A DNA stretch of 39,379 bases, from the NCBI GenBank assembly GCA_031262265.1, contig JAISIB010000126.1, forward strand, positions 1-39,379, written 5' to 3'. The translations under genes were made by a program, and so were the position numbers. How positions within the stretch are numbered: position 1 is the first letter of the stretch; each line of letters starts with the position of its first letter. A model generated the notes under the pieces. The model was not told the DNA's origin. It saw only the letters and a program-made list of their open reading frames with translations, and searched no databases. Source of the DNA: Prevotellaceae bacterium (GTDB lineage Bacteria; Bacteroidota; Bacteroidia; Bacteroidales; Bacteroidaceae). This document shows, piece by piece, positions 9,366-31,043 of the stretch.

Positions 9366-9518
9366 TTTAAACCGATTATTCATTAATAAAAAAGGGAGGA
9401 CGCGCCTATGGACAGGGTCTGAGAAACACTAAAAAACCGGAACATGCTGCCACATATTCCGGTTGTAAAAGTTCTTTTAGAAACGATAAGTCTAATACAA
9501 ACTTTAAGTCGCAAAGTT

Positions 9519-12500: not shown

Positions 12501-12947
12501 TTTGACTTCTACTTATCCAGCAATGGGTCGTTCGGACATCAAGTTGCACAAGCCTATCGTCCGATGGAGCGTTTCCAATATAATTATCCGACGAAAATAT
12601 TGGGACGTTGGACGGGTGCTGGCAGTAGCAATACGATGCCGCGTGTAACGCAGGGCGATGAACCGAATGGGAACTGGCGATATTTGTCACAGCTTTATGT
12701 AGAAAATGCCGATTTCTGGCGCATTAACAACATTACGTTGGGCTATGACTTCAATAAACTGATACCTAACTCTCCGTTGGGGCAGTTGCGCCTCTATGCG
12801 ACCGTACAGAATTTGTTGACGGTGACCGGTTATTCAGGAATGGACCCCGATGTTGGTTGGAGTTCTTCGTCGTGGGGTTCGGGTGTAGATATAGGTTTTT
12901 ATCCCCGTCCGAGAACCGTATTGTTCGGTGTAAACGTAAAATTCTAA
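9519..12947 (+). CDS. SusC/RagA-family TonB-dependent transporter with an N-terminal STN signalling domain
   Basis: A signal peptide is followed by an STN-like domain (LNVKQLSILDVLKNIERQTGFLFVYD). Next come a CarboxypepD_reg-like domain (ITGIVLDQTGESVIGANIRVKG) and a TonB box/plug (DEVVVVGYG). The C-terminal barrel ends in ...VNVKF. ATG at 9519 is chosen within ORF 9444..12947. Confidence 0.9.
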   Translation: MKCNLLQEKNPLFNRLVLIMRFTLIFFFVCSLGLYAADIRSQETPISLNVKQLSILDVLKNIERQTGFLFVYDKNEIDVSSLVDVEADNEQLQAVLASLFKGTEIGYAFEGKNIMLMKSRNADKQIQQQQIGRTITGIVLDQTGESVIGANIRVKGVSNAGTISDIDGNFTLRDVTNNSVVIVSFIGYRTREITVGNQQSLQIILDEDTQTLDEVVVVGYGVQKKKLLTGANLQVKGDDILKRNAQNPLDALVGQSPGVFISQSSGQPGEDFKVNIRGLGTVGDATPLYIVDGMQTSSIAYINPSEIESIDVLKDAASAAIYGARAANGVVLITTKQGKPGKAVISYDGFVGFQSPSKLAEMLNAQDYAMIQNEAAVNSGKQAYNWQNEFGINVPALGMGTNWLDELVEKNALTQNHVLAVNGGTNQSVYSLSLAYSAQEGVIGGSKFSNSDRYTFRANSEHKLHGDLIKVGNHLSYTYRTRNGISNGGQYDNLIHDALQATPFLPVYDADGNYAQATAWFPEESNPMGSLYYKNQNATQTNSFLGDVYIEVQPIKGLKWKSSFGLDYTNYTYRKYLPVYQLSSTDMNQMDYVEQRANKSYSWSWENTVNYDFKLNELHSFNVLLGMQAQRSGGESLYALKRALTFSDFDHAWISNATNVDTGQISVSGAPNDVDNLLSYFGRVTYDYNETYMGTLTVRADASSRFGENNRWGYFPSASAGWVITNEPFMESTRDWLEFLKLRVSWGQNGNQRISTYSYLATIASNANYEFGPNDNTNTNYVGTYQNRMPNPDVKWETSEQFDAGFDARFFGGKLNAALDYYSKTTKDWLIQVPVPAVLGAPSNPFVNGGSVRNSGLELSLSYRDYVGELSYSISGNLAYNKNEVLDIPNDEGIIHGPQDVLFKGMQEMYRAEEGYPIGYFWGLDMLGVFQTQEEINNYKNAEGKVIQPTALSGDVKFADYNGDGQIDMSDNIDLGNPYPDITMGLSVSLAYKGFDFYLSSNGSFGHQVAQAYRPMERFQYNYPTKILGRWTGAGSSNTMPRVTQGDEPNGNWRYLSQLYVENADFWRINNITLGYDFNKLIPNSPLGQLRLYATVQNLLTVTGYSGMDPDVGWSSSSWGSGVDIGFYPRPRTVLFGVNVKF

Positions 12948-12965
12948 TCTAAAAAAGAGAACAAC

Positions 12966-14570: not shown

Positions 14571-14624
14571 TTATCTTTGACGTGCTTTTTCAAAAGAATA
14601 TGTATCACTAAACAATTTAATGTA

Positions 14625-17395: not shown

Positions 17396-17437
17396 AAAAG
17401 CAAGTAGGCTGCCCAAAGGGCAGCTTACTTTGCTTTT
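17396..17437. terminator. Bidirectional terminator hairpin between convergent genes
   Basis: AAAAGCAAGTAGGCTGCCC, AAA loop, then GGGCAGCTTACTTTGCTTTT (one G-U pair and one bulge). A-tract and T-tract flanks. Confidence 0.6.
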
Positions 17438-18710
17438 ACTTTTTAATACACGGTGCTCGTTCGATTATCTCTAAGTACATGCGCCCGTTGTGGTAGGGGC
17501 ATTTCCAAGGGCCGGCCTTGTCGTCCTTACGGTTTTCGACATCGTCGAGGCTGACGCTCCAAAACCATTCGTCGTGTTCGTAATCTACCAACTTGTCGAG
17601 GATAAAGAAATAGGTCTCTTGGACGCGTTTGAGAGCTTCTTTGTCGCCGAAATATTGATAGAGATTCAGGTTGCCGACAACGGTTTCGGCCTGCACCCAC
17701 CAGTGTCTTTCGGTATCGGTGTGGTCGGTATCCAGATTACGCTCATAGGCTGTTCCTTTAAGCATTTGGTATCCTTCGAGCGACGCATGGGCTATTCGTT
17801 TGACCGTCGTTTCTACTTCCGATAACAAAGCATCATAATCAATTATCTCCGTATCTTGTCGTGAGATCTGACTTTGTTGTTTCAACACCAAAGCGGCTTC
17901 GTGCAACAACCATGAGGCCTCGATTTCGTGCCCATAGGAGTGAATTCGATAACGACTTTGCCAATCTTCGGTAAAAAAGAGGTGCAGATGTCCGTCGTCG
18001 TCCGTAAATTTGTCAAGAAACAACCGTATCAGATTATGCAGGCGTTCGGCTAAGCGTGCCGTAGGCCAAACGCGATACAAGTTAGTATACGGTTCGAGTA
18101 AGTGCAGGTGCGTGTTCATCGTTTTGCATTCGTTCGCGTCTTTGTCGCTGAGGCGCATGTCGCCGAGCGGTGACCAGTCGCGTGCAAAAGCCTCGAAATA
18201 TCCGTTACGTTCGGCATCGAAACTGTGTGCTTCGATGCTCTCGAACAAACGAATGGCGTATTCCAATGCTTCTGCGTCGCCCGTCGCCCGATATAGCTCG
18301 CTTAGTCCGTAAACGGCGAATCCTAATGCGTAGATCTGCTTTTTTGTTTCCGTCGGATTCCCTTGATAATCCAACATCCAATAGACTCCGCCGTATTCCG
18401 AATCGTAGAAACGGTCTATCAAATAGCGTTTGGCATGCCATGCGGCTTCCAAATACTCCGGACGTCGCAGCACGCGATACGCGGCTGCGAAGGTCCAGAG
18501 AATACGTGCGTGCAAAACGGCACCTTTGTCGGCCTGCGGCATCAGAACATCCTGTCCGGTCATCCGTCCGTAGTATCCGCCATGTTCGCGATCGGTCATG
18601 CGATTCATCCAAAACGGCAGAATTTGATCGGTGAGGGCGATACGTGAAACCTTCTCCATTTCTTTGATCGAAAAAGGCTTCCTCGAATACGTTTTAGCGT
18701 TTTGCTTCAT
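17436..18710 (-). CDS. N-acylglucosamine 2-epimerase (AGE)-family cellobiose/mannobiose 2-epimerase
   Basis: 424 aa with KTMNTHLHLLEPYT and SYGHEIEASWLL motifs. Last gene of the GH130-symporter-epimerase arrangement known from the Bacteroides fragilis mannan operon. Confidence 0.82.
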   Translation of the reverse strand: MKQNAKTYSRKPFSIKEMEKVSRIALTDQILPFWMNRMTDREHGGYYGRMTGQDVLMPQADKGAVLHARILWTFAAAYRVLRRPEYLEAAWHAKRYLIDRFYDSEYGGVYWMLDYQGNPTETKKQIYALGFAVYGLSELYRATGDAEALEYAIRLFESIEAHSFDAERNGYFEAFARDWSPLGDMRLSDKDANECKTMNTHLHLLEPYTNLYRVWPTARLAERLHNLIRLFLDKFTDDDGHLHLFFTEDWQSRYRIHSYGHEIEASWLLHEAALVLKQQSQISRQDTEIIDYDALLSEVETTVKRIAHASLEGYQMLKGTAYERNLDTDHTDTERHWWVQAETVVGNLNLYQYFGDKEALKRVQETYFFILDKLVDYEHDEWFWSVSLDDVENRKDDKAGPWKCPYHNGRMYLEIIERAPCIKK

Positions 18711-20121
18711 GACGTTGCTTGTCCAAATCTTGCATGACGGCTTTCACTTTGGCTTCTGCCAGCGGATAGAACCACATACCTATTGCCGCTGCGAGACAAG
18801 CTACGGCCGGCAGCCAACTCATCATGAGCCGAACACCATAGATAGCGGTCTCAGACTGCGTAGAGGCATCCTGATTGTAACCGAACGCGGCCAACAGCCA
18901 ACCGACAAGCGCGGAGCCTAATGCCCATCCCATTTTCTGCGAGAAAGAAGAGGCAGAAAAGATAAGTCCCGTGGAGCGGTGTCCGGTTTTCCATTCCGAA
19001 TAGTCGACAATATCGGCAAACATGCTCCATAGCAAGGGCAATACATAACCGGCGCATACGGAAATAACGGCCTGCAAGATAAGTAAAGAGGCTATCTGGT
19101 CGGGTTTTATCGACATAAAGAACACGCTGAGCACGGCCGCCGCCAACATGGCTGCGATATAGGTCGGTCGTTTGCCGAAGCGATTGGAAAGCGGTGTGCA
19201 CAAAGCCACGCCTACCATGTTTCCGGCTTGGCCGATCAACAGGTAAATGGTCGCCATCGTCCAACCGAAGTACGGCATTTTGTATGAAAGCTGAATATAG
19301 TCGGTAAAATAGAACAAAGCTACGCCGTCGCGTATGGCGTTGAAAAGTAAAGCGGCCAAACCCGTCACCAGCAATATCCAAAACGGCGCATTGCCGAGCA
19401 AACGTTTCAAATCTTCGCTCACGGAACTGTGTTGCGCCTCGTTGACCGGTTTTACTCGTTCGCGTGTCCAACTGAAACACAAGAAAAACAATACGGCGCA
19501 TATCAATCCGATCACCGCAACGGCCAGTGTCCAACCGATCGGCTCGACGCTCACGCCCGTCGCAGCATCTTTCGCTGCTATTGCCGACGTCGTTCCGCTA
19601 CCGAAAGCGTCGGCGAAACCGTCAATCAGCGGTTGCAGCAACATAAAGGTGATGAAACTGCCGATGAAAGCGAAAAACATGCGGTAGGAAGAGAGTGCGT
19701 TGCGTTCCTTCGTATTGGCCGACATGACGCCTAAGAGTGAGGCGTACGGCACATTGACAATGGTGTACACCGTCATCATCAATAGATAGGTGATATAGGC
19801 GTATATCAATCGGCCGGTCGGGCTGAACGGCGGCACATAGAAGGTAAGCACGCCGATCAGTGCGAACGGGATAGCAAACCAAAGCAAATAGGGACGATAC
19901 TTGCCCCAACGACTCTGCGTGCGGTCGGAAATAATACCCATCAAGGGATCTGAGATCGCATCATACAGTCGGGTGATAAGCATCATGGTACCTACGACCG
20001 CAGGGTCAATGCCGAATACCTTCGTATAGAAGAATAGGAGATACATCCCGAATATCTTCCAAAACATGGACGACGCCATGTCGCCGAAGCCGTAGCCTAT
20101 TTTTTCTTTCAGTGTAATCAT
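18694..20121 (-). CDS. Glycoside-pentoside-hexuronide (GPH/MFS) sugar:cation symporter
   Basis: 475 aa with about 12 hydrophobic helices. N-terminal GYGFGDMASSMFW and ISDRTQSRWGKYRP motifs. Overlaps GH130 by 4 nt and the epimerase by 17 nt. Confidence 0.85.
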   Translation of the reverse strand: MITLKEKIGYGFGDMASSMFWKIFGMYLLFFYTKVFGIDPAVVGTMMLITRLYDAISDPLMGIISDRTQSRWGKYRPYLLWFAIPFALIGVLTFYVPPFSPTGRLIYAYITYLLMMTVYTIVNVPYASLLGVMSANTKERNALSSYRMFFAFIGSFITFMLLQPLIDGFADAFGSGTTSAIAAKDAATGVSVEPIGWTLAVAVIGLICAVLFFLCFSWTRERVKPVNEAQHSSVSEDLKRLLGNAPFWILLVTGLAALLFNAIRDGVALFYFTDYIQLSYKMPYFGWTMATIYLLIGQAGNMVGVALCTPLSNRFGKRPTYIAAMLAAAVLSVFFMSIKPDQIASLLILQAVISVCAGYVLPLLWSMFADIVDYSEWKTGHRSTGLIFSASSFSQKMGWALGSALVGWLLAAFGYNQDASTQSETAIYGVRLMMSWLPAVACLAAAIGMWFYPLAEAKVKAVMQDLDKQRHEAKR

Positions 20122-21293
20122 GTGGGTAAGATTTGGAGGTTGTGGTCAATGAGCCGGTCTAATGTGCGTACGGATGCCGAAGAAGACAATCCGTCGGGTG
20201 GCGTATGCAGACAATAATCGGTCAAACGTTCGATAGTTGACGTGGCGACATGCATACGCGTGTCGCTGGAAGCATAATAGATGAACACTCTTCCGTCATC
20301 ATCGGCTATCCATCCGTTAGCAAACAAGACGTTGGATACGTCGCCTATACGTTCTTCTCCTTCGGGAGCCATAAAATATCCGCCCGGAGCAGCTATCAAT
20401 CGGGAGGGGTCGGCCAAATCTGTCATATAAAGGTATAAGACATACCGCAAACCGGCGGCGCAATAGCGCACACCGTGCGCCAGATGGAGCCAGCCTTTCT
20501 CCGTTTTCAGAGGTGGCGGCCCCTCGCCGTTTTTGGCTTCCTTGATCGTATGATAATAACGCGCATCGATAATTGTTTCGTCGGCAATCTCCGCATTCGT
20601 AATGTCATCAATCAATGCCCAACCGATGCCACCACCACTACCGGTCTCAATAAACCCATCTTGCGGGCGGGTATAGAGCGCATACTTTCCGTTGATAAAC
20701 TCCGGATGCAATACTACATTGCGCTGCTGATGTGCGGACTTCAAGTCAGGCAATCGTTCCCACTGCTTCAAATCTTTTGTTCGGGCGATACCAGCTGTCG
20801 CGACAGCCGCAGACAGATCTCCTTCGGGTGCCGTATCATCGTGGCGTTCGGCACAGAAGACGCCGTATATCCAACCGTCTTCGTGGGCTGTCAACCGCAT
20901 GTCATACACATTAGTGGCCGGAATAATATCCTCCGGCATGGTAATCGGATGATCCCAAAAGCGGAAGTTATCTATTCCATTGGGACTTTCGGCCACGGCA
21001 AAGAATGATTTTCTATCCACGCCTTCGGTACGTACCATCAACACGTATTTTCCCTGCCATTTAATAGCACCGGAATTCATTGTCGCGTTCATACCGATAC
21101 GTTCCATAAGGAAAGGATTCGTATGTTCGTCCAAATCGTACCGCCAAAAGACCGGTGTGTGCGCGGCCGTTAGTACCGGATATTTGTAGCGGGTATAAAC
21201 CCCGTTGTTATGCGTCGCAATTTCGTTTGGCCGATGAATAAGATTTTCATAGTCGGCAAGTAATTGCGATTTTCTCTGTTCAAATTCGCTCAT
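20118..21293 (-). CDS. GH130 4-O-beta-D-mannosyl-D-glucose phosphorylase
   Basis: 391 aa. Long stretches match my recollection of the B. fragilis enzyme: YPVLTAAHTPVFWRYDL, NPFLMERIGMNAT, RKSFFAVAESPNGIDNFRFW and YYASSDTRMHVATSTIERL. Confidence 0.88.
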   Translation of the reverse strand: MSEFEQRKSQLLADYENLIHRPNEIATHNNGVYTRYKYPVLTAAHTPVFWRYDLDEHTNPFLMERIGMNATMNSGAIKWQGKYVLMVRTEGVDRKSFFAVAESPNGIDNFRFWDHPITMPEDIIPATNVYDMRLTAHEDGWIYGVFCAERHDDTAPEGDLSAAVATAGIARTKDLKQWERLPDLKSAHQQRNVVLHPEFINGKYALYTRPQDGFIETGSGGGIGWALIDDITNAEIADETIIDARYYHTIKEAKNGEGPPPLKTEKGWLHLAHGVRYCAAGLRYVLYLYMTDLADPSRLIAAPGGYFMAPEGEERIGDVSNVLFANGWIADDDGRVFIYYASSDTRMHVATSTIERLTDYCLHTPPDGLSSSASVRTLDRLIDHNLQILPT

Positions 21294-21314
21294 TATACTT
21301 TACTGAGTATATAG

Positions 21315-22016
21315 TTATTTCGCAAGTGCTTTGTCAATAGCTTCTTTTACCAGTTTCTCCATGACTGCGTATCCTTGTGCGGTTACGTGTACGCCGTCGC
21401 TCGTATATTCTTTGGGCAACCCTTTACTCCCGTCGTTACTAACGAGGTGCGTATAGTAGTCCAAATAGGTGAAACCTTTCGCTTGACAGTATTCCTTGAT
21501 CGCCGCATTGAGCTGGTCTACCTTAGCCGGTACGGCGGAAATTTCTTTGCGCCAAGGAATCTCAGCGGCCGGCAGTACGGACGTCAGGATTACTTTGATA
21601 CCGTTGGCGGCTGCGATTTCCGCCATCGATTGGAAGTTGCCGAACGTAAACTCGAAGTCGTAGGTTCCGGTATTGGTGGCAATATCGTTGATACCACCGT
21701 TGATTACGACCACTTGCGGATGCAAGGCTACTACGTCCAACCGGAACCGCGACAGCATTTGCGGCGTGGTTTGTCCGCCGATACCTCGTCCGAGATAGTT
21801 ATTGCTTTGGAAGAAATCTTGCCGCATATAATACCACATTTGGGTAATGGAATTGCCCATGAAGACGGCTTTTACCGGCGTTTTGTCTTGGCGTATTTTC
21901 GTATTAGCATCGGCATAAACGTTGTACATCGCCCAAGATTCTTGGTTGCTTTGTGCATATAGTTCGCCGGCCAATGAAATAATTAAAACGAATAGCGTGA
22001 AACGAAAAACTTTCAT
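21315..22016 (-). CDS. SGNH/GDSL-family esterase (probable carbohydrate acetylesterase)
   Basis: Signal peptide. SGNH blocks FMGNSIT, GIGGQT, GGINDI and DGVHV. Confidence 0.8.
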   Translation of the reverse strand: MKVFRFTLFVLIISLAGELYAQSNQESWAMYNVYADANTKIRQDKTPVKAVFMGNSITQMWYYMRQDFFQSNNYLGRGIGGQTTPQMLSRFRLDVVALHPQVVVINGGINDIATNTGTYDFEFTFGNFQSMAEIAAANGIKVILTSVLPAAEIPWRKEISAVPAKVDQLNAAIKEYCQAKGFTYLDYYTHLVSNDGSKGLPKEYTSDGVHVTAQGYAVMEKLVKEAIDKALAK

Positions 22017-22033
22017 ATCCTTAGTTTATGTAG

Positions 22034-23806
22034 TTAATAATCTATCGGAAGACCTAAGTGTATGCGAATAAATGCTTGCTCGGCTTCTCGCGCATGTGAA
22101 TCGGTCGTATGTCCCGAACGGGCGCAAGCTACCCAAACTTTCTCCGATTTTACTTGATTGTACGCTGCAAAATTGATATGCGGCGGACAGGTTTCGTCTT
22201 GCATGCCGAAGCTCATAATAAGTGGGCATGTAATCCATGGTGCTAAGTTTTTAATGTCGAAATAGGTAAGTAAATCGTACACATGTTCCCAATCCATATC
22301 GGGATGCGCCTTTTTATAATTGTCAAAGTCGCTTCTCGGCCAGTTTACTATCTTGAAATAATCACGATAGTCGGACAGGAACGGAATACTTGGCGCAGCT
22401 ACTTTTACGCGCTTGTCCAGCGCGGCGGCCACAAAGGACAATGCTCCACCTTGGCTACCTCCGATGACGGCAATCTTCTCGGCGTCTACTTCGGGGCGAC
22501 TACATACGAAATCAATCGCGCGTACTACGTCGCAGAAAGCTCCTTGATAATAATAGCCCTCTTTATCTGCCAATCCGATGGTAATCCAAAGATCATCTTC
22601 CGGCGTCAGTCGGTTTAATGCTTGCCCACGAATTGACGGTACATAATGCGCAAATCCGTCCCATCGCGTATTTGAATAATACGGGGTAGAGCCGTAGCCC
22701 ATGTAGTTTATTTGGATAGGGAATTTTCCTTCGCGCGTAGGTTGCGAATAATAGCCGCGAATAATTTTGCCGTTAAGCGATTTCATTTCCACCAAGTAAA
22801 CTTTGTAATCTTTGTTGGATGCGTCGGGCACAAGCGTCATTTTATATTCCGGAGCTACCTTTGCCAGCTCTTTCAGGTTGTTTTCCCAGAAAGCTTTGAA
22901 GTCGCTGTGTGAATCTACGGGCGATTGAATCTTTTCAGGCTCGTAGCCTAAATTGAATTTCTCTTCCATCAATGATTCGCCGTTACGTACAAATTGTACG
23001 GTGAACCGATAAAAACCCGGCACTTGACTGGAATATTCGAAAGTTCTGACGGCTGTTTCTCCCGCTTTGGCACTCACGGTTTGTTTCATCGTGGTGATTG
23101 GTCGGAAATCGTCCGTCGTGATGGTTAGAACGAAGTCGCCGCTAACCGTCCACGGGTTGTCGTTTGTAAGCAGGGCAGACGCTTTTATCGTCTGGTCGCC
23201 GAAAAATATAAAGTCGTCATCGGGAATGGAATAAGCCATCAATAGTCTGTCCGACGTCTCCGCTGTGGTGAACCAGAGCTTAGCTCCTTTGAGCAGGCCG
23301 CCGCCCGTATTCATGCGCCGCCCCCATCTGTCGTAGAATTTGATGGCTAATACGTTATTTTCGCGTATGAGATCGGCGTCGACGAAGTAACGACGTTGCA
23401 TGAAGTTGCCTCCGCGTCTCATGCCGCCTTGCGAAAATGCCGCGATCTCTTTACCATTTAGATAAATGGTATCAGATCCCATAATGCTGTCCAGATGCAA
23501 AATAATGCCGCCTTTGCGGGTAGCGGAACGATAGAATTCGTTAGGCAGCGTAATGGCTTTACGATACCATCCTGTGCCGTTATCGGTTTTCAAACCATAG
23601 TCGGCAAGAGGTTTATCGGTCTTGACTAATTTCCATGAGCCGTCATTAAAGTCAACGGACGCCCACTGTTCGCTGCCTTTGCCTGCTTGAAATTTCCATT
23701 CGTTAGAGAAGTTAGCCGTCAGCGTGGGTGAGGTATCTTCTTGTTGAGCTTGCATGGCGGGTATAGCCAGCCACGCGATCCAAATACATAATATAAGCCG
23801 TTTCAT
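22034..23806 (-). CDS. Acetyl-xylan-esterase (CE7/AXE1-like) with an N-terminal sugar-binding-like domain
   Basis: 590 aa with a signal peptide. The nucleophile elbow GGSQGG lies in the C-terminal alpha/beta-hydrolase part. ATGA start/stop overlap with the upstream GH5 gene. Confidence 0.75.
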   Translation of the reverse strand: MKRLILCIWIAWLAIPAMQAQQEDTSPTLTANFSNEWKFQAGKGSEQWASVDFNDGSWKLVKTDKPLADYGLKTDNGTGWYRKAITLPNEFYRSATRKGGIILHLDSIMGSDTIYLNGKEIAAFSQGGMRRGGNFMQRRYFVDADLIRENNVLAIKFYDRWGRRMNTGGGLLKGAKLWFTTAETSDRLLMAYSIPDDDFIFFGDQTIKASALLTNDNPWTVSGDFVLTITTDDFRPITTMKQTVSAKAGETAVRTFEYSSQVPGFYRFTVQFVRNGESLMEEKFNLGYEPEKIQSPVDSHSDFKAFWENNLKELAKVAPEYKMTLVPDASNKDYKVYLVEMKSLNGKIIRGYYSQPTREGKFPIQINYMGYGSTPYYSNTRWDGFAHYVPSIRGQALNRLTPEDDLWITIGLADKEGYYYQGAFCDVVRAIDFVCSRPEVDAEKIAVIGGSQGGALSFVAAALDKRVKVAAPSIPFLSDYRDYFKIVNWPRSDFDNYKKAHPDMDWEHVYDLLTYFDIKNLAPWITCPLIMSFGMQDETCPPHINFAAYNQVKSEKVWVACARSGHTTDSHAREAEQAFIRIHLGLPIDY

Positions 23807-24975
23807 TTTTTAAGTTTTTTTTGAATATCTAAATTTCCTTTCATTGCTTCACTAAAGAACTTCATCCCCTCGGTAGGTTCGTAGTTCCACGATTTAATCT
23901 TTCCGCCGCCCCATTCGGGGTCGTAAACCCAAATACACCAGCTGATCCCTTTTCCTTCCAAGTAGCCGATGATTTGATTGCCGTAGTGATCGCCTTTCAG
24001 GTCAATCGGTTCGGCCGGCGTCATCTCTATATTTCCTCTCACCATCCCTTTGGCGGGGTCTATCAACTTGAAGTTATCCGGAGCAAAACCTTTGGCCGGA
24101 TCTTTCAATACGGGTCGTTCCATAGAGTCGTGACTGAACTCGGTAGCAAACACCGGCCACGTGTCGGCAGCAAAGCCGAAGTTCTGTTCCCAAGTAGCGT
24201 TCCATGGCTGCGGACTTTTGTTGGCGTACGGGTGCGTAGAGTAAGCGATGTTATCCGCATTGATAGGTTCTATCCGCAGGGGCGTCAGGTCGTAAGCCCA
24301 GTCGAAAGCACCCACGATAGGGATAGTTTCTTTGTCGGCGTAGCGGATAATGGTAATCATGTTCTCAACTAATTTTTTCCAGTCCGTCCATGAGCAAACT
24401 CCCAACTGTCCGCGGTAAGTCGTTGGTTCGTTGAAAAGTTCATAGAAAGCCACCGTATTGTTGCCGGCGAAGCGCATGGAAATTTTACGCCAAAAGTCGT
24501 ATGTTTCTTGTTTGGTAGTGATGTACATCGGATCTTGGAACATTTCCATTTCCAAGTTGCCGATGGTGTGCCAGTCAAGCATGACATACATTTTTAAGTC
24601 GGTACACCACTCGACGGCTTGATCCAGCAACTCAAGATACTTCTCTGGTGTGCGTTCGCGCCATGCTACGGGATGAATCGGCACGCGTATGATATTCGCG
24701 CCGTATGCTTTGATACGTTCGAAGTGCGCTTTGTTCCAATGTCCTTGTCGTTCCACTTTGTCAGGGTCTGAAATGGCAATTCCGCGAAAGAGGATCGTAT
24801 TGCCGTCGGGCGTCTCAAAATGATTGCCGTTGACTTTAATCAGCGGCATGTCTTTGGCTTTCGGACTGGGCGTATTCACGACAAAACGATCCACGTACCA
24901 AGGCTGTTCGTCCTGCGCCCACAGTGTTGTCAGGCACGTCATGCCGAACAGAAGAAAGAATAAAATCTGTTTCAT
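23803..24975 (-). CDS. Glycoside hydrolase family 5 (endo-beta-1,4-glucanase/mannanase)
   Basis: Signal peptide. FYELFNEPT (acid/base) and VFATEFS (nucleophile) motifs typical of GH5. Confidence 0.82.
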   Translation of the reverse strand: MKQILFFLLFGMTCLTTLWAQDEQPWYVDRFVVNTPSPKAKDMPLIKVNGNHFETPDGNTILFRGIAISDPDKVERQGHWNKAHFERIKAYGANIIRVPIHPVAWRERTPEKYLELLDQAVEWCTDLKMYVMLDWHTIGNLEMEMFQDPMYITTKQETYDFWRKISMRFAGNNTVAFYELFNEPTTYRGQLGVCSWTDWKKLVENMITIIRYADKETIPIVGAFDWAYDLTPLRIEPINADNIAYSTHPYANKSPQPWNATWEQNFGFAADTWPVFATEFSHDSMERPVLKDPAKGFAPDNFKLIDPAKGMVRGNIEMTPAEPIDLKGDHYGNQIIGYLEGKGISWCIWVYDPEWGGGKIKSWNYEPTEGMKFFSEAMKGNLDIQKKLKK

Positions 24976-25143
24976 GGTCTATGCGTTATAATTCTCATCG
25001 TTCGGTTGGCAACTATGCCCTTATGCGGGGAGATTATCAAAGCCGGAAAATATTTTTTGCGGGTATGATATTTCCATATCTTACCTTGATAATTTCCTTA
25101 CATACGGGCATAATTGCAACACGAAGAAGTTTGTTGTTAGATG

Positions 25144-26325
25144 TTACTTAATATTCTGAATATCTTTCAAGAACAAATATTTTTTATTGTCCTTCATGAT
25201 TTTCAGCAGGTCTGAATGTTTGGGCATGCGCATCCAACGTTCGTATGCTTCACGTTGATCTGCGGGCATCTGTGCGATTTGTGCAGCCGTGGGAGTCGGT
25301 CTCGGTGTGAAGCCGCCACGCGGCGGTGCGCTACGCCATGTCAATATGTACGACGATTTGTATTTTGCCAGAATCTTTTGCAGGTCGGCACTGATCGGAC
25401 CGCATTCGCTCAACGCATGTAGCTTGTGCTTTTGCGCCGCCAAGTCGGTCGTAAATTTCAGTGCCTTATCTACGTTCTGATTAAACTCTTCGCCTTGTCC
25501 ATACCAGTCGATGGAGAGCATATCAATATATTCATCGCCCGGGTATCCGGCTAAGTATTCTTCCGACGAATATACCTTATCGGTGTTATAAGCATAGAGA
25601 ATATTGTGCAGTCCTTTGTTGCGCAAATATTTCACGGTGTAACGCCACAGCTCGGCGTATTCTTCGTCATAGCAGCGAGTACGTCCCCACCAGAAGAAGC
25701 TACCTGAGTGTTCGTGGTACGGACGGAAAATGAACGGGATCAGTTTTCCTTCTTCGTCGCGCCATGTGTTGAAATAACGAGCCAGTCTGTCCAGCCACGT
25801 ATTAAACATGGCGTGGTTCTTACCGCCCGGCAATACGCTACGCACGGCGTTCATTTCGGGATCATTAGCGGCTAACATTTCCACTTCCCACGCCGAACCG
25901 GCTCCATTTGGCTCTTTGATGCCCGGCCACTGCGAGGTGATCGGATTTACCACGTGCCAGCTGATCGTCATGATGCCGTTTTGTTTGTGCCACCAAATGA
26001 TTCTTTCTCTGGCCTGCGCAAAAGAGATGGAGTCGAGGCTTCGAGAGCCGCCCAATTCCAGTTCGCCAAGCTCCCAACCTACTACGCCGGGATAATCGCC
26101 GACGGCCTCTTTCGTATCCGAGCGGTCAGGCTCGTACCACCAAGTGCTGCCGGTCATCAAATCATCTTGATGTCCGTACATAACGCCTTTGTCCTGCAAT
26201 TTCAGCAGGCGGGCAAACAATGCTTTGGCTTCGGGGGTTGCATCCGGATCGGCCGGTTGCCAAGTTTGTGCGGAGAGGCCGGAGACCATTAACAGCGATA
26301 GTAAACTAACAAAAATGTTTCTCAT
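25144..26325 (-). CDS. Glycoside hydrolase family 26 beta-mannanase
   Basis: Signal peptide. YGHQDDL, GWELGELELG and RPYHEHSGSFFWWG motifs typical of GH26. Confidence 0.85.
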   Translation of the reverse strand: MRNIFVSLLSLLMVSGLSAQTWQPADPDATPEAKALFARLLKLQDKGVMYGHQDDLMTGSTWWYEPDRSDTKEAVGDYPGVVGWELGELELGGSRSLDSISFAQARERIIWWHKQNGIMTISWHVVNPITSQWPGIKEPNGAGSAWEVEMLAANDPEMNAVRSVLPGGKNHAMFNTWLDRLARYFNTWRDEEGKLIPFIFRPYHEHSGSFFWWGRTRCYDEEYAELWRYTVKYLRNKGLHNILYAYNTDKVYSSEEYLAGYPGDEYIDMLSIDWYGQGEEFNQNVDKALKFTTDLAAQKHKLHALSECGPISADLQKILAKYKSSYILTWRSAPPRGGFTPRPTPTAAQIAQMPADQREAYERWMRMPKHSDLLKIMKDNKKYLFLKDIQNIK

Positions 26326-26507
26326 ACATGTTATTGTTAAAGTTATTATTAAAACGTTCCTTTGTCTCAGTTTCCTAATACGGGTGTGAACTACTCATTA
26401 GGAAAGAGATACCACAAATGAATCTTTCGGCAGCAAAATTCCGAATAACGTAGGATACTTACAAGTACAATTATTACAGAGTTTAATACTTTTTTGATTT
26501 TCAGCTT

Positions 26508-28739
26508 TTAGCGCACTAAAAATGTCTCTTTTAACAGTTCCGTATCGGCCGAAGAACCCCCGATTAGGACGAAAAATTCGCCGGATTCTACGATTTTCTG
26601 CATTCGTTTGTCGTAGAAACTTAGCTTTTCTGGCGTGATGGTAAAGCATATCGTTTTAGTCTCACCGGCTTTTAAGTAAACGCGCGCAAAATCTTTCAAC
26701 TCTTTTACCGGACGTGTGACGCTACTATATCTGTCGCGCAAATAAAGCTGAACGATTTCCGTCCCGTCAGTAGAACCGGCGTTGGTCACTTTAACGCTTA
26801 CGCGGAGCGATTCGTCTTTACTGATTTCTTTCGTAGAGAGAGTCAAGTCCTTATATATATAATAGGTATAAGATAATCCGAAGCCGAACGGCCAAAGCGG
26901 CGTGCTTGGTTTTACTACGTACGGATGGAAATATTGAGAGGGCTTATGATTGTATACCATCTGCACTTGTCCTACGCTGCGCGGAATAGTGACGGCCAGC
27001 TTCGCCGATGGATTGATTTTGCCATAAAGGATTTCCGCGATTGCTTGTCCGGCATACATGCCGGGTGCCCATGCTTCGATAATTGCAGGTAAATGTGTCG
27101 CTGCCCATTCTACTCCGAGCGGACGGCCATTGATAAGTATTAGAATTGTCGGTTTGCCGGAGGCCGCCACTTTCTGTATGAGTTCGTTTTGCAAACCTAC
27201 TAAATCAATATCAGAGCGATCGGTGTCTTCTCCGTCCGTCCGTTCCGTCCAGCGAAAACGCATCATGTATTCACCGGCTACCACTATGTTAAGATCAGCT
27301 TGACGGGCGTGCGCGGCAGCGGCTTCGACGGTATCCGGAGACATGTTGCGCGGGTCCCAACCTTGGTCGATGAAATCAAACTCTGTATTGGGTGCGATTT
27401 GTCGTAGCCCGTCGAGAATGGTAACGACCTCTTCTTTCGCTTGCATCGCGCTCCAATCTCCTAGAACGTTGATGTCGTTTGCGTTGATACCTGTCACCAA
27501 TACGCGCCGATACTTGCCGCTATCCAACGGAAGCACTCCGTTGTTTTTCAGCAGAACGATACTGTTGCGCGCAGCCTCCAATGCTGTGTTTCGATGCGTG
27601 GCGCAGCGTGCAATCTCCGTGAATCGTTCTGTCTCGGCAAAGGGTTTTTCGAATAAGCCTAAACGAAACTTTATTTCCAAGATACGGCGAACGGATTGGT
27701 CGATACGCGCTTCGGAGAGGCGGCCTTCGCGTACTAGTTCTACGACTAACTCATTCCATTTTACGCCATGCATGTGCATGTCCATGCCGGCCTCAATAGA
27801 TTGGTAAAAGGCTTCTTTGATATTTTCGGCGGTGCCGTGCAAATCATGGATATGCTCAATATCCATCCAGTCACTGACTACGAAACCCGGGAACTGCCAT
27901 TCTTTGCGTAACACCGTTTGTAGGAGCCATTCGTTACTATGGCAAGGGATTCCGTTTAGTTCGTTGTGCGCCGTCATCAGTGACATCGCACCGGCGTCTA
28001 CGCCCGCCTTGAAAGGAGGAAAGAATATCTCACGCAACGTGCGTTCGGAAATATCGGCCGGCGCACCGTTCGTGCCGTTGACAGGCTGACTACCGCCGAC
28101 AAAATGCTTGATGCAGGCCAATACGTCTTCCGCTCCGTTCAGTTCGCCTTGGTATCCTTTGACGGAGGCAGTTCCTAATTCCGCTACCAAATAAGGGTCT
28201 TCGCCATAAGTTTCTCCCACGCGTCCCCATCGAGGGTCGCGCGCCACTTCGACGTTGGGATTGAATGTCCAATGCATGTTCATGGCACGCATTTCTCGCG
28301 CTGTTTCACGTGCAATCCGGTAGGCCATGGCCGTATCAAACGAGCAAGCCAGTCCGATGTTGGTCGGATATACGGTGTTCCCGGGAGCATTTGCATTTCC
28401 GTGAATAGCGTCAATACCGAAGATCAGAGGAATTTGTAAGCGGCTCTTCATGGCAAGCGATTGCAAGCGGTTGGCTTCTTCGAGGGTCAGCACATGGAGA
28501 AACGACCCGATGAGTCCTTGTTCTGTCCATCGTTCTACGTCGTGCTCGTTGACGCCCGGATAAAATGCATTGGCCGTATTGTTATGCAATTCATCTTCCG
28601 TCATTCCGCTGTTGGCTTTAATATGCTCAATACCTACGAACTGATTCATTTGCCCTACTTTCTCTTCCAGCGTCATGCGTTCGATCAGGTCATTTATCCG
28701 TTTGTCTACGGCAGCCGAAGGGTCTTTGTATATTTCCAT
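26508..28739 (-). CDS. Glycoside hydrolase family 3 beta-glucosidase
   Basis: 743 aa. GIDAIHG, GFVVSDW (nucleophile Asp) and a C-terminal Fn3-like region. No obvious signal peptide. Confidence 0.88.
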   Translation of the reverse strand: MEIYKDPSAAVDKRINDLIERMTLEEKVGQMNQFVGIEHIKANSGMTEDELHNNTANAFYPGVNEHDVERWTEQGLIGSFLHVLTLEEANRLQSLAMKSRLQIPLIFGIDAIHGNANAPGNTVYPTNIGLACSFDTAMAYRIARETAREMRAMNMHWTFNPNVEVARDPRWGRVGETYGEDPYLVAELGTASVKGYQGELNGAEDVLACIKHFVGGSQPVNGTNGAPADISERTLREIFFPPFKAGVDAGAMSLMTAHNELNGIPCHSNEWLLQTVLRKEWQFPGFVVSDWMDIEHIHDLHGTAENIKEAFYQSIEAGMDMHMHGVKWNELVVELVREGRLSEARIDQSVRRILEIKFRLGLFEKPFAETERFTEIARCATHRNTALEAARNSIVLLKNNGVLPLDSGKYRRVLVTGINANDINVLGDWSAMQAKEEVVTILDGLRQIAPNTEFDFIDQGWDPRNMSPDTVEAAAAHARQADLNIVVAGEYMMRFRWTERTDGEDTDRSDIDLVGLQNELIQKVAASGKPTILILINGRPLGVEWAATHLPAIIEAWAPGMYAGQAIAEILYGKINPSAKLAVTIPRSVGQVQMVYNHKPSQYFHPYVVKPSTPLWPFGFGLSYTYYIYKDLTLSTKEISKDESLRVSVKVTNAGSTDGTEIVQLYLRDRYSSVTRPVKELKDFARVYLKAGETKTICFTITPEKLSFYDKRMQKIVESGEFFVLIGGSSADTELLKETFLVR

Positions 28740-28775: not shown

Positions 28776-29171
28776 TTATTGTTCTTTTATTTTGATGCCA
28801 TTGACGTCTCGGGTGAAAATATATGAGCCGCCGCGCGGACTAAGATCGAAAGGTGAGATGAGATCCGTATGTTGATCGACGATTAAGATAGTATTGTCTT
28901 CTCCCAACCTATGTGTCTCGATGGAACGAGGCGTTGTGGCGATGCGGGCATCCAGTAGCAAACTGTCATTTAGATAAACGGCAATGCTGTCGCCCGCGAA
29001 TCCGTCGGAAAGCGTGAACGTGTAAGTCTCGTGATACTGCGTCGTGCCGGAAAGTTTGCTGTTCATTTGCATACTTATCAGTACGAAAAGAACGACAACG
29101 GCTATAACGGCGAATCCAAGTATGCCGTTTCCGATCATAAAAGCTTTATTTGTATTCAAACGATGCGCCAT
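28776..29171 (-). CDS. Hypothetical single-pass membrane protein (131 aa)
   Basis: One TM helix (GILGFAVIAVVVLFVLI) followed by a beta-rich domain of about 90 aa. Lies 37 nt upstream of GH3 on the same strand. No family recognised. Confidence 0.5.
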   Translation of the reverse strand: MAHRLNTNKAFMIGNGILGFAVIAVVVLFVLISMQMNSKLSGTTQYHETYTFTLSDGFAGDSIAVYLNDSLLLDARIATTPRSIETHRLGEDNTILIVDQHTDLISPFDLSPRGGSYIFTRDVNGIKIKEQ

Positions 29172-29304
29172 ATTCTTCTTTTTTTAGGGCAAAGTAAGGG
29201 AAAAACACCCAATATTTATCAGAAGAACGCCTAAAAACTGTCGAAAGACAGAATTTCCCCGAAACTCTACCTAAAACTATCCTATCGACCCCGCAAAAGG
29301 GGCT

Positions 29305-29312
29305 TACATTTG
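29305..29312 (+). promoter_or_regulatory. Candidate -7 promoter box (TACATTTG) facing the GCTAA-repeat region
   Basis: Matches TAnnTTTG. No plus-strand ORF lies downstream before the hairpin at 29614. Confidence 0.35.
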
Positions 29313-29386
29313 TAACGTCAATCAGAAAGACAGATGCTTTAACCGTAGTAACAAAGAATAAAAAGTTGATAATACAAATTGCCGAG

Positions 29387-29588
29387 AACCAATTATTGAA
29401 AGAACGAAATGCTAAAACAGAAAGTAAATGCTAAGACCTAAGAGAACGCTAAACCCTAACAGACGAAAACCAATTATTAAAGAATTTGCTAAAAACCAAT
29501 TATGACGAAAAGAAAAATGCTAACGACCTAAAATGTAAGAGAAAGGCTAAAACCGACGAAATGCTAAGACCTAAGAGATGCTAAACCG
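29387..29588. repeat. Degenerate direct-repeat array (GCTAA x8, longer duplicated blocks, AACCAATTAT x3)
   Basis: - GCTAA starts at 29411, 29430, 29448, 29488, 29519, 29546, 29563 and 29580.
- AAATGCTAAGACCTAAGAGA is perfectly duplicated at 29426-29445 and 29559-29578.
- ACGAAATGCTAA occurs at 29404 and 29556.
- AACCAATTAT(T) occurs at 29387, 29468 and 29494. Confidence 0.85.
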
Positions 29589-29613
29589 ATTGTAGAAAGA
29601 AATTCGCAACCTT

Positions 29614-29663
29614 AAACGCAGCGCAGCACGACTGACAATAATCAATCGTGCTGCGCTGCGTTT
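29614..29663. terminator. 18-bp perfect hairpin with A/T flanks
   Basis: AAACGCAGCGCAGCACGA (29614-29631), a 14-nt loop, then TCGTGCTGCGCTGCGTTT (29646-29663). Confidence 0.6.
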
Positions 29664-29702
29664 GTCCTGTCCGTCGGTAGAATAAATAGCGCGTAAGTAA
29701 GC

Positions 29703-29746
29703 AAAATATCCGGCTCTGAAAATCTGTTTTCAGAGCCGGATATTTT
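29703..29746 (-). terminator. 20-bp perfect hairpin, terminator of the M64 peptidase gene
   Basis: AAAATATCCGGCTCTGAAAA, TCTG loop, then TTTTCAGAGCCGGATATTTT. It lies 50 nt beyond the stop at 29796. Confidence 0.7.
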
Positions 29747-29795
29747 ATTTACAAGGTTTGAAAATTTACTCTTCCGGTAGGATAATAAAGCGATG

Positions 29796-31043
29796 TTATT
29801 CCGTATAAAACTCAATCATGCGGCGCAATGCGCGCTGACAAACGGGACAGAATGCGGATGCCGTGTTGGTACGCATACGACAGTCGTCGGCCGGACGATA
29901 TACGTCGGCAGAATATCCTCCGCCCTTAAATAGGCCGACGCCGGGCACGTCCATCATATCTTCCCACTTGGAAGCGAAATTGACGCGCGTGGTGATGTTT
30001 TGTTCCCAAGGCTCTACGTCCAACGGATAGGCGGCCGTGGCTATATCGTTAGGGTAGTAGTACTCATCGCCCAATCCCCCGAAACTATGGCCGAACTCGT
30101 GTACGACTACCGGCTTGAATTGCGCATGGTGCGCCGTGGTTAGCGTGTAAGAATTGTAGATTCCGCCGCCGCCGTATGTATTCGTGTTTGCGAGGATAAT
30201 GATATGTTCATAGGGGATGCCGGCCAATTCGTCGTGGATAGCTTTTACGTGTGGCGTAGTCAGGTAGCGAGCGGAATAAAACGTATCGAAATGCGAATCA
30301 ACGGCGGTGCTTTTCCATTCGCCTTTGCGCGGAATACTCACGCCGCTGTCTTCCGACGGACTACAAACGGCGACAATGTTGAAACGCTCGCGCATTGTTC
30401 GGAAAGGCTCGTGTGAAAACAGGGCTTCGCAAGTAGCTTCTGCATCGGCGAGGAAGAGATTCATTTCGTTCTCCGTATATCCTTCTGCCAAGATAGCCAC
30501 GTCAATGTGCGTAGCTACGTCGCCGTTTTTCTCTAAATACTTGTGCGTAGTGATACGCTCGTTACCTATGCGGCGAATGAGTATATCTTTCGGATCCACG
30601 CGGTGACTTAGCGTTGCGATGGTATCGTGATGTGCGTCTAACAAGGTTACATCAATCCACGCCGTTTGCTTGGGCATCGGCAAAAGAAAGACGTTCTCGA
30701 AAGAACGAGGGGTGGTCTTTGCCTCATCTTCGTTCAGCCATTCCAAGAATAAGGCCGAAAATGACGTACGATAGATGATAGTATTACTATCGGCGTCTCT
30801 CATGGAGATTTGTCCGTTGCCTTGTAGTGGCAAGCTACTTAGATTGTGTTTTCTCCCCGCCCATCCGTCGGATTGCGACAGAGCATCCACGTAAATGTGT
30901 TGGCGGGTAATGTCACTACAAAAGGCGTAATCTACCCGAAGCGTTCGCCCGTCGAAATAAGTATCGAACTCTTGGGCGCAAAGCAGCATAGGTAGCCAGA
31001 AAAAACAGCCGGTAATGACCGGCACAAAGAATCTTCGGAACAT
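29796..31043 (-). CDS. M64-family (IgA-peptidase-like) zinc metallopeptidase, secreted
   Basis: Signal peptide. HEFGHSFGGLGDEY is the HExxH site in the M64 context. The N-terminal region is M64_N-like (TLRVDYAF). Confidence 0.82.
   Translation of the reverse strand: MFRRFFVPVITGCFFWLPMLLCAQEFDTYFDGRTLRVDYAFCSDITRQHIYVDALSQSDGWAGRKHNLSSLPLQGNGQISMRDADSNTIIYRTSFSALFLEWLNEDEAKTTPRSFENVFLLPMPKQTAWIDVTLLDAHHDTIATLSHRVDPKDILIRRIGNERITTHKYLEKNGDVATHIDVAILAEGYTENEMNLFLADAEATCEALFSHEPFRTMRERFNIVAVCSPSEDSGVSIPRKGEWKSTAVDSHFDTFYSARYLTTPHVKAIHDELAGIPYEHIIILANTNTYGGGGIYNSYTLTTAHHAQFKPVVVHEFGHSFGGLGDEYYYPNDIATAAYPLDVEPWEQNITTRVNFASKWEDMMDVPGVGLFKGGGYSADVYRPADDCRMRTNTASAFCPVCQRALRRMIEFYTE

What the first reader, a model, noticed from the sequence alone, without database searches (positions are those of the whole stretch)
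29305..29663. Candidate novel multi-motif ncRNA: an A-rich transcript of about 345 nt with eight GCUAA repeats between a -7 promoter box and an 18-bp terminator
**Seen in the sequence**
- The 625-nt gap between the 28776-29171 gene and the M64 gene contains no ORF of 60 aa or more.
- A TACATTTG box (29305-29312) is followed by a purine- and A-rich stretch.
- In that stretch GCTAA recurs eight times within 175 nt, with spacings of 19, 18, 40, 31, 27, 17 and 17 nt.
- The motifs are embedded in longer duplicated blocks: a perfect 20-mer, AAATGCTAAGACCTAAGAGA, occurs twice, 133 nt apart; a 12-mer, ACGAAATGCTAA, occurs twice; and AACCAATTAT occurs three times.
- The region ends at a perfect 18-bp GC-rich hairpin.

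**Inference**
- This is the architecture of protein-titrating sponge RNAs such as the CsrB/RsmZ type, which carry repeated GGA motifs.
- Bacteroidota lack CsrA, so a repeat-bearing RNA here would imply a different RNA-binding partner, for example an RRM-type Rbp protein or another regulator.
- The region lies divergent from a glycan-utilisation operon.
- Alternatively, the repeats could be DNA-level binding sites (an iteron-like array) for a regulator of the flanking genes.
Basis: partly seen in the sequence, partly recalled or inferred. Interest (0 to 1): 0.7.

Follow-up and report, generated by a model that had tools for sequence, protein, structure and literature searches.

The report
Conserved A-rich multi-motif small RNA candidate
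An intergenic stretch in an uncultured Bacteroides-like bacterium looks like a gene for a roughly 345-nt unstructured, A-rich RNA carrying eight GCUAA sites, and a sister species keeps the same promoter, sites and end hairpin, so it is probably a real new regulatory RNA whose binding partner is unknown.

Summary
GCTAA occurs 8 times on the plus strand in 174 nt, against about 0.7 expected.

The main new result is a homologous element in one other uncultured relative, locus L084. It also lies divergent from the homolog of the 131-aa gene, and it keeps:
- the TAnnTTTG promoter box and the following AACGTCAA;
- seven GCTAA copies plus two one-mismatch copies, mostly as GCUAA(N0-2)ACC;
- the second motif, AACCAATTAT;
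- an 18-bp terminal hairpin with three compensatory pair changes.

Synonymous sites between the two species are only about 50% identical, so this retention points to selection. There is no conserved ORF, no Rfam match, and no predicted structure in the body.

I read it as a new, clade-restricted small RNA that offers many single-stranded sites to a binding factor, most likely as a decoy. It is not a CsrB/RsmZ, CrcZ, FopS/GibS or ToxI member. Transcription and the binding partner are untested. Only two species carry it; more distant relatives with the same neighbouring gene lack it.

The parts
29172..29304 (.). Divergent control region between the 131-aa gene start codon and the RNA promoter. 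It contains blocks conserved with L084: TATCAGAAGA, AAAAAC..TCGAAAG.CAG and CCCGAAA.
   Evidence: Pairwise alignment with L084. The 131-aa gene's own -7-like box lies at about 29191-29199 on the minus strand; it reads TACCTTTG in L084 and CAAAGGTA-type in other relatives.
29305..29312 (+). Bacteroidota-type -7 promoter box TACATTTG (consensus TAnnTTTG).
   Evidence: It is the only match on either strand of the 624-nt gap. L084 has TATCTTTG at the equivalent place. The same box sits 25-60 nt upstream of the M64, AsnC-type and other genes in the window.
29314..29321 (+). AACGTCAA, identical in both species. Probable transcription start region, with the start inferred near 29318-29321.
   Evidence: The start position is inferred from the usual distance to the -7 box and has not been measured.
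29319..29666 (+). Predicted non-coding transcript of about 345 nt.
   Evidence: It is bounded by the conserved promoter and the conserved hairpin. It has no conserved ORF and no Rfam match. The predicted fold is unstructured apart from the terminal hairpin.
29361..29400 (+). Conserved 5' blocks: AAAAGTTGATAATA (29361-29374), and a first degenerate unit GCCGAG-AACCAATTATTGAA with the 16-mer AGAACCAATTATTGAA (29385-29400) identical in L084.
29411..29587 (+). Array of eight GCUAA motifs starting at 29411, 29430, 29448, 29488, 29519, 29546, 29563 and 29580. Seven of the eight extend to GCUAA(N0-2)ACC. Units are 17-40 nt long.
   Evidence: L084 has 7 exact copies plus GCCGAA and GCTTAA variants.
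29387..29503 (+). Second recurrent motif AACCAATTAT at 29387, 29468 and 29494, with a variant AACCGATTGT at 29584.
   Evidence: L084 has two exact copies plus AACCGATTAT.
29614..29663 (+). Terminal GC-rich hairpin (18 contiguous pairs, A-tract before, UUU after). Presumed intrinsic terminator and 3'-end protector.
   Evidence: It is conserved in L084 with 3 pairs changed on both sides and 97% of cells paired.

Best explanation
The region is a stand-alone gene for a non-coding RNA of about 345 nt on the plus strand.

- **Transcription.** It is transcribed from a Bacteroidota-type promoter (TACATTTG) that diverges from the 131-aa membrane-protein gene heading a mannan-type glycan-utilisation cluster. 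It ends at an 18-bp hairpin.
- **Body.** The body is 48% A and essentially single-stranded. It displays 8-9 copies of GCUAA(N0-2)ACC interleaved with AACCAAUUAU.
- **Proposed mechanism.** The RNA acts in trans as a multivalent decoy. Each exposed motif binds one copy of a sequence-specific single-strand RNA-binding factor, most likely a protein. Raising the RNA level would withdraw that factor from its mRNA targets.

**Shown:** the anatomy, conservation of the motifs, promoter and hairpin in a second species, absence of coding potential, and absence of predicted structure.

**Inferred:** transcription, the strand, the trans action, and the nature of the partner.
For: - **Motif enrichment.** GCTAA occurs 8 times against 0.72 expected. 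GCTAA.{0,2}ACC occurs 7 times against 0.01 expected.
- **Independent test in L084.** The motif was fixed in advance from the window. L084 has 7 GCTAA against 0.68 expected, with a maximum of 4 in 2000 shuffles, and 6 extended motifs against 0.01 expected.
- **Neutral divergence.** Fourfold-degenerate sites in the two flanking genes are only 49% and 54% identical. A neutral 5-mer would survive about 3% of the time, and the spacers between motifs have diverged in sequence and length.
- **Promoter.** The promoter box and AACGTCAA are conserved, and the box is the only one in the gap.
- **Hairpin.** It is kept through three compensatory changes.
- **Independent unit.** The far-side neighbour differs between the species: M64 on the opposite strand in the window, DUF4492 on the same strand with its own box in L084. 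The unit therefore travels as promoter-array-hairpin together with the 131-aa gene.
- **Strand asymmetry.** AT skew is +0.48 and purines are 65% of the stretch.
- **Non-coding.** ORFs are 32 aa or shorter and are not shared.
- **Fold.** The plus strand folds no better than shuffles (z = -1.5), and the centroid structure shows only the terminal hairpin.
Against: - There are no expression data of any kind.
- Only two species carry it, so conservation statistics rest on one comparison.
- Part of the motif count in the window comes from a recent internal duplication of about 60 nt, so repeat turnover contributes.
- The U-tract after the hairpin is short (UUU), and the hairpin is symmetric (AAA...UUU), so it does not fix the strand.
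- No -33 TTTG element lies upstream of the box.
- Predicted unpaired probability of the motifs (0.63 in the window, 0.47 in L084) is not higher than that of the rest of the body.
- No candidate binding protein is known. The published RbpB in-vitro motif differs, and the linked 131-aa protein is a single-pass membrane protein with a beta-sandwich domain that is probably extracytoplasmic, so it is unlikely to be the partner.
- More distant relatives with the 131-aa gene have no array.
Confidence: 0.4

Rival explanations
1. It is a real plus-strand small RNA, but the repeated motifs act by base pairing. It would be a sponge for, or a multi-seed regulator of, RNAs that contain GGU(N0-2)UUAGC.
For: The anatomy and conservation are the same as for the main reading. 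The motif with its ACC extension is 8-10 nt long, which is seed length. Known Bacteroides sRNAs act through single-stranded seeds (PMC11697453).
Against: The 39-kb window has only one complementary site outside the array, GGTATTAGC at 10968, which lies inside a coding region. The 5' seed of FopS/GibS (GUGUUUUUCAUAGUAUUAG) is not complementary. The variable 0-2 nt spacer inside the motif fits a two-part protein site better than a duplex. No genome-wide target search is possible from one window.
Confidence: 0.15
2. The repeats are DNA-level binding sites, an iteron-like or operator array, for a regulator of the flanking genes. No functional RNA would be involved.
For: The direct repeats all point the same way and lie next to a conserved divergent control region. 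AACCAATTAT contains a short AATT palindrome.
Against: Double-stranded sites do not require 48% A on one strand. Spacings of 15-40 bp are not helically phased in either species. The array lies 90-270 bp downstream of the conserved promoter box and is closed by a conserved hairpin, not centred on either promoter. No replication or partition gene lies nearby.
Confidence: 0.12
3. It is a degenerate minisatellite with no function of its own. A unit of about 18 bp expands and contracts by slippage or unequal exchange, and concerted evolution keeps the copies alike.
For: TRF reports a period-17 array with 3 copies. The window has a 60-nt internal duplication with a perfect 20-mer. The element is absent from all but two lineages.
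Against: The same 5-mer core and the same second motif are the top enriched words in both species, although the units differ in number, length and spacer sequence. Homogenisation within a lineage does not explain identity of the core between lineages at about 50% neutral identity. It also does not explain the conserved promoter box, the 5' blocks or the compensated hairpin.
Confidence: 0.1
4. The functional strand is the minus strand. The region would be a long U-rich 5' leader (UUAGC repeats) of the 131-aa/GH3 cluster, or the tail of the upstream transcript.
For: Both flanking genes in the window are on the minus strand. The hairpin is symmetric. The minus strand folds better than shuffles (z = -3.3).
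Against: Neither species has a TAnnTTTG box on the minus strand between the hairpin and the array. In L084 no minus-strand gene ends upstream of the array. The 131-aa gene has its own box 20-45 nt before its start codon in every relative examined. An 18-bp GC hairpin followed by U's would terminate such a leader. The better fold of the minus strand is what G-U pairing in a U-rich sequence would be expected to produce (my inference, not a tool result).
Confidence: 0.08

Closest known systems
CsrB/RsmY/RsmZ-type protein-titrating sRNAs (Gammaproteobacteria)
   Same: A stand-alone RNA of a few hundred nt with many copies of one short motif, ended by an intrinsic terminator. The proposed logic is the same: multivalent sequestration of an RNA-binding regulator.
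   Different: The motif is GCUAA(N0-2)ACC, not GGA; the window body has 0 GGA. The motifs sit in an unstructured A-rich strand, not in hairpin loops. There is no Rfam hit. CsrA is reported as undiscovered in Bacteroidetes.
CrcZ/CrcY (Pseudomonas), A-rich decoys for Hfq/Crc in carbon catabolite control
   Same: A long A-rich RNA with several repeated single-stranded sites, located in a carbon-source utilisation context. This is the closest functional analogy.
   Different: AAnAAnAA and (ARN)4 are not enriched: 3 and 1 observed in the window against 3.5 and 2.4 expected, and 0 in L084. There is no Rfam hit. The promoter type differs, and Hfq is not known in this group.
FopS/GibS sRNA family of Bacteroides (RbpB-associated)
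   Same: Bacteroidaceae intergenic sRNAs with a sigma-ABfr-type promoter, a single-stranded body and a terminal hairpin, linked to polysaccharide utilisation (PMC11697453).
   Different: Those RNAs carry a single 5' seed (GUGUUUUUCAUAG...). They are multicopy genes rather than multicopy motifs. The family is deposited in Rfam, and neither the window nor L084 matches it.
Type III antitoxin RNA arrays (ToxI and relatives)
   Same: A promoter, then a direct-repeat RNA array, then a terminator hairpin.
   Different: In my recollection of that family, ToxI repeats are near-identical units of fixed length (about 36 nt) followed by a same-strand toxin gene. Here the units are degenerate and 15-40 nt long. 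No same-strand ORF follows in the window. In L084 the next gene is DUF4492 with its own promoter box.

Membership tests
CsrB/RsmZ-type sponge RNAs | Many GGA/ANGGA motifs, mostly in hairpin loops | tested here: not met
   GGA count is 0 in the window body (3.7 expected) and 2 in L084. The body is predicted to be unstructured.
CsrB/RsmZ-type sponge RNAs | Match to the Rfam covariance models of the family | tested here: not met
   No hit at gathering score in the window. In the permissive scan of 29100-29850, only chance-level miRNA-like hits on the two hairpins appear. L084 has none either.
CsrB/RsmZ-type sponge RNAs | CsrA/RsmA partner encoded in the genome | not testable with these tools
   Only 39 kb of the genome is available. 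The literature states that such regulators are undiscovered in Bacteroidetes.
CrcZ-type Hfq/Crc decoys | Several A-rich AAnAAnAA / (ARN)n Hfq distal-face motifs above background | tested here: not met
   AA.AA.AA is seen 3 times against 3.5 expected in the window, and 0 times against 2.7 in L084. (ARN)4 is seen 1 and 0 times.
FopS/GibS family | Conserved 5' R1 seed and a match to the Rfam model | tested here: not met
   The seed GUGUUUUUCAUAGUAUUAG is absent from the sequence. There is no Rfam hit.
Type III toxin-antitoxin (ToxIN-like) | Near-identical fixed-length tandem repeats followed, after a terminator, by a same-strand toxin gene | tested here: not met
   Units are 15-40 nt long and share only the core motif. 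There is no downstream plus-strand ORF before 31167.
Iteron / operator DNA arrays | Regularly spaced, near-identical duplex sites next to a replication or regulated promoter region, without strand bias | tested here: not met
   Spacings are 17-40 in the window and 15-71 in L084. AT skew is +0.48. No rep or par genes lie nearby. Protein binding to the DNA cannot be tested here.
Bacteroidota sigma-ABfr-dependent intergenic sRNA gene (generic class) | A TAnnTTTG -7 box upstream, no ORF, and a terminal stem-loop, all conserved in relatives | tested here: met
   box in both species; no shared ORF; hairpin with compensatory changes.
Bacteroidota sigma-ABfr-dependent intergenic sRNA gene (generic class) | A detectable transcript with defined 5' and 3' ends | not testable with these tools
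   No transcriptome data are available for this uncultured organism.

The most novel reading that the evidence does not exclude
This would be the first CsrB/CrcZ-style protein-titrating RNA in Bacteroidota. The decoy's GCUAA(N0-2)ACC sites would define the recognition code of an as-yet unidentified global single-strand RNA-binding regulator. Its divergent pairing with a mannan-utilisation cluster would tie it to glycan prioritisation.
Probability: 0.25. Interest if true: 0.8.

Novelty: new variant of a known kind. Interest (0 to 1): 0.55.

Why it matters
Bacteroidota lack Hfq, CsrA and ProQ. How they organise global post-transcriptional control of glycan use is an open question, and so far only RRM-type Rbp proteins and seed-pairing sRNAs are known.

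A conserved, unstructured RNA that carries eight or nine copies of one short motif is the signature of a titration device. If it is real, the motif gives a direct bait (RNA pull-down, EMSA) for finding a new RNA-binding regulator. It would also show that decoy RNAs have arisen independently in this phylum.

The value is limited because the element is known from only two uncultured species. Nothing is known about its expression.

Tried and rejected
- **Synteny through the M64 peptidase.** 80 genome loci (49-64% protein identity) contain no GCTAA cluster. The nearest M64 fragment, L083 (77% nucleotide identity), has an OMP gene directly after M64, so M64 is not linked to the element.
- **Exact-protein look-ups.** They returned only contigs identical to the window from one run (L081, L082).
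- **Metagenome pattern scan.** The A-rich hits I inspected were tandem repeats that look like Ala-Lys-Thr-type coding repeats, and most of the rest had the composition of ordinary repeat arrays. nhmmer and blastn found no homolog among the 120 loci.
- **Viral contig scan and BLAST.** The AACCAATTAT..AACCRATTAT scan of viral contigs, and BLAST against plasmids and phages, found no homolog.
- **More distant 131-aa homolog loci.** L085-L094 and L324-L326 have short upstream gaps and no array.
- **FopS/GibS sponge idea.** Rejected, because the seed is not complementary.
- **RbpB as partner.** No support from the published in-vitro motif. The 2026 Rbp preprint gives no motif.
- **A conserved 5' stem (CGUCAA/GUUGAU).** It folds no better than shuffles.
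- **Small-peptide reading of the recurrent AUGCUAA.** The AUG is not conserved in L084, and no ORF is shared.
- **The linked 131-aa protein as RNA binder.** The AlphaFold model (pLDDT 82.6) shows one TM helix plus a beta-sandwich with only generic fold matches. It has no Pfam, NCBIfam or PDB sequence hit.
- **The other high-AT-skew stretch (1-550).** It is GC-rich sequence that looks coding, not an analogous element.

Full report
**1. The observation**

The 624-nt gap between the 131-aa ORF (28776-29171, minus strand) and the M64 peptidase gene (29796-31043, minus strand) holds no ORF of 60 aa or more. The longest ORF inside the proposed RNA is 32 aa.

TACATTTG lies at 29305-29312. It is the only match to the Bacteroidota -7 consensus TAnnTTTG on either strand of the gap. 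Elsewhere in the window the same box sits 25-60 nt upstream of the M64, AsnC-type and several other genes, so it is informative in this genome.

There are 49 other hits on both strands of the remaining 39 kb.

- Dinucleotide-preserving shuffles of the transcript body give a mean of 0.72 copies and a maximum of 4 in 2000 shuffles.
- No shuffle out of 1000 has any complex 5-mer eight times.
- The 20-mer, the 12-mer and the three AACCAATTAT copies are as stated.
- The hairpin at 29614-29663 has 18 contiguous perfect pairs.
- The body is 47.7% A, with AT skew near +0.48.

Read as units, the array is about ten degenerate repeats of 17-40 nt. Their shared core is GCUAA followed, after 0-2 nt, by ACC in seven of eight cases (7 observed against 0.01 expected). 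Part of the count comes from an internal duplication of about 60 nt (about 29404-29466 versus 29540-29600).

**2. Context**

Both neighbours are on the minus strand.

- The hairpin at 29697-29752 is followed by a T-run on both strands. I read it as the M64 terminator.
- Downstream of the 131-aa gene on the minus strand lie GH3, GH26, GH5, an acetyl-xylan-esterase-like protein, a GDSL esterase, GH130, an MFS sugar transporter and an N-acylglucosamine-2-epimerase-family protein. I interpret this as a beta-mannan-type utilisation cluster.
- The 131-aa protein has no Pfam, NCBIfam or PDB sequence match.
- Its AlphaFold model (pLDDT 82.6) is one N-terminal membrane helix plus a beta-sandwich with only generic fold neighbours. 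The basic residues precede the helix, so the domain is probably extracytoplasmic and an unlikely RNA partner (inference).

**3. Relatives**

The organism is very poorly sampled.

- The best M64 homolog among 5.8 billion proteins is 67% identical.
- The best among 185,579 species genomes is 64% identical.
- None of 80 M64 loci carries a GCTAA cluster.
- Exact-protein look-ups gave only identical contigs from one run.

The 131-aa protein is different. It has one close homolog (P0126, 63% identity) on a 1.8-kb JGI contig, L084. That contig has a 523-nt gap upstream of the gene, and the gap contains a homologous element in the same divergent orientation (nhmmer E = 3.6e-17). The element has:

- TATCTTTG followed by AACGTCAA (the window has TACATTTG-T-AACGTCAA);
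- AAAAGTTGATTATA;
- the 16-mer AGAACCAATTATTGAA, identical to the window;
- seven exact GCTAA copies plus GCCGAA and GCTTAA variants, eight of nine followed by ACC;
- two AACCAATTAT copies plus AACCGATTAT;
- a terminal 18-bp hairpin.

GCTAA was fixed in advance from the window. In L084 it occurs 7 times against 0.68 expected, with a maximum of 4 in 2000 shuffles. It is again the top complex 5-mer.

The hairpin differs at three pairs on both sides while 97% of cells stay paired. Slid controls pair only 19-47%.

Fourfold-degenerate sites between the two species are 49% identical (131-aa gene) and 54% identical (M64 fragment L083 from the same sample). An unconstrained 5-mer would therefore survive about 3% of the time. 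The spacers between motifs have indeed changed in sequence, length and number.

The far-side neighbour in L084 is a DUF4492 gene on the same strand as the array, with its own TATATTTG box, and not M64. A separate contig from the same sample as L084 (L083) carries an M64 homolog 84% identical in protein, and there M64 is followed directly by an OMP gene. So promoter, array and hairpin move as a unit together with the 131-aa gene.

Lineages whose 131-aa protein is 46-57% identical have upstream gaps of 138-430 nt, no array and no nhmmer match. These include Bacteroides togonis-type genomes and another organism from the same JGI sample. The element is thus restricted, as far as sampled, to two sister species.

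**4. What it is not**

- **Rfam.** Rfam 15 gives nothing at gathering score in the window. On 29100-29850 and on L084 it gives only chance miRNA-like hits on the hairpins.
- **Coding.** No ORF is shared between the species, and the AUG in front of six window motifs is not conserved.
- **CsrA-type.** GGA occurs 0 times in the window body.
- **CrcZ/Hfq-type or TRAP-type.** AAnAAnAA, (ARN)4 and (G/U)AG are at or below expectation.
- **FopS/GibS.** The published 5' seed is GUGUUUUUCAUAGUAUUAG, and there is no Rfam hit.
- **ToxI-like.** The units are irregular, and no same-strand toxin gene follows.
- **Mobile or viral.** No homolog exists in plasmid, phage or viral collections.

**5. Strand and structure**

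The hairpin is symmetric (AAA...UUU) and does not decide the strand. The plus strand is favoured for four reasons:

- it carries the only promoter box, and that box is conserved;
- neither species has a minus-strand box beyond the hairpin;
- every relative examined has a -7 box immediately upstream of the 131-aa gene itself;
- the A-richness is extreme on that strand.

The plus-strand RNA folds no better than shuffles (z = -1.5), and its centroid structure contains only the terminal hairpin. Motif positions are not more exposed than the rest of the body: unpaired probability is 0.63 against 0.71 in the window and 0.47 against 0.63 in L084. The support here is that the whole body is open, not that the motifs occupy loops. 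A possible 5' stem is not significant.

**6. Mechanism**

The best-supported reading is a stand-alone RNA of about 345 nt whose function resides in many single-stranded copies of GCUAA(N0-2)ACC, and perhaps AACCAAUUAU. That makes it a multivalent binding platform.

I commit to a protein decoy as the most likely mode (confidence 0.4 for the whole chain).

- A variable 0-2 nt spacer inside the motif suits a two-part protein site better than a duplex.
- Eight or nine identical sites are typical of titration RNAs.

The rivals are an RNA-RNA sponge (0.15), a DNA-level site array (0.12), a functionless minisatellite (0.10) and a minus-strand leader (0.08). No partner can be named. The RbpB in-vitro motif is GUAGGAUA. 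Only one complementary site exists elsewhere in the window, and it is inside a gene.

**7. Novelty and score**

In kind, this is a multi-motif decoy-type sRNA, which is a known kind. Its motif, composition, lineage and lack of any family match make it a new variant, not a member of an existing family.

Literature searches found no decoy-type RNA reported for Bacteroides.

Interest is moderate (0.55). The comparative evidence makes it a credible new RNA gene in a phylum where global RNA regulators are still being sought. However, it rests on two uncultured species and has no expression or binding data.

Noticed in passing
window 29697-29752: A second inverted repeat (26-nt arms, 92% complementary) with T-runs on both sides lies directly after the M64 stop codon. 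It looks like a bidirectional intrinsic terminator for M64, and it would also back up the hairpin of the candidate RNA.
   Followed up: partly
window 29172-29265; L084 1225-1312: Sequence blocks between the two divergent promoters are conserved with L084 (TATCAGAAGA, AAAAAC..TCGAAAG.CAG, CCCGAAA; about 75% identity over 90 nt). They could be a shared operator. The small GAAA-loop hairpin at 29238-29251 in the window is not kept in L084.
   Followed up: partly
window 29191-29199 (minus strand): The -7-like box of the 131-aa gene reads TTACTTTG in the window. That is one base short of the TACCTTTG / CAAAGGTA form found in L084 and in all more distant relatives examined. The gene's promoter may be weakened in this organism.
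   Followed up: no
window 28776-29171 (minus strand): The 131-aa protein belongs to an unannotated family found in Bacteroides-like genomes (77 database clusters). Its N-terminus MAHRLNTNKQFMIGNG is almost invariant, and it has one TM helix and a beta-sandwich domain. It has no Pfam, NCBIfam or PDB sequence match. Its genomic neighbours differ between lineages.
   Followed up: partly
window 17436-28739 (minus strand): A cluster of GH3, GH26, GH5, AXE1-like esterase, GDSL esterase, GH130, MFS_2 transporter and GlcNAc-2-epimerase-family genes has a composition typical of beta-mannan or mannooligosaccharide utilisation. A separate ECF-sigma/FecR/SusD-containing locus, together with the large ORF at 9444-12947 whose family was not checked, lies at 7670-16346 on the plus strand.
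   Followed up: partly
window 29404-29466 versus 29540-29600: A duplication of about 60 nt inside the array, including the perfect 20-mer, has no counterpart in L084. The array is therefore still being remodelled by duplication in this lineage.
   Followed up: partly
L081 and L082 (Logan run SRR14710920): The two Logan contigs that match the window are 100% identical to it. Both end inside the 29614-29663 hairpin, which looks like an assembly break at the inverted repeat. They add no independent information.
   Followed up: yes
whole window: The organism is very sparsely represented in public data. The M64, GH3 and 131-aa proteins each have a 90%-identity cluster limited to this contig. The only exception is a 104-aa fragment from JGI sample 3300042599, the sample that also yielded the sister element.
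   Followed up: partly
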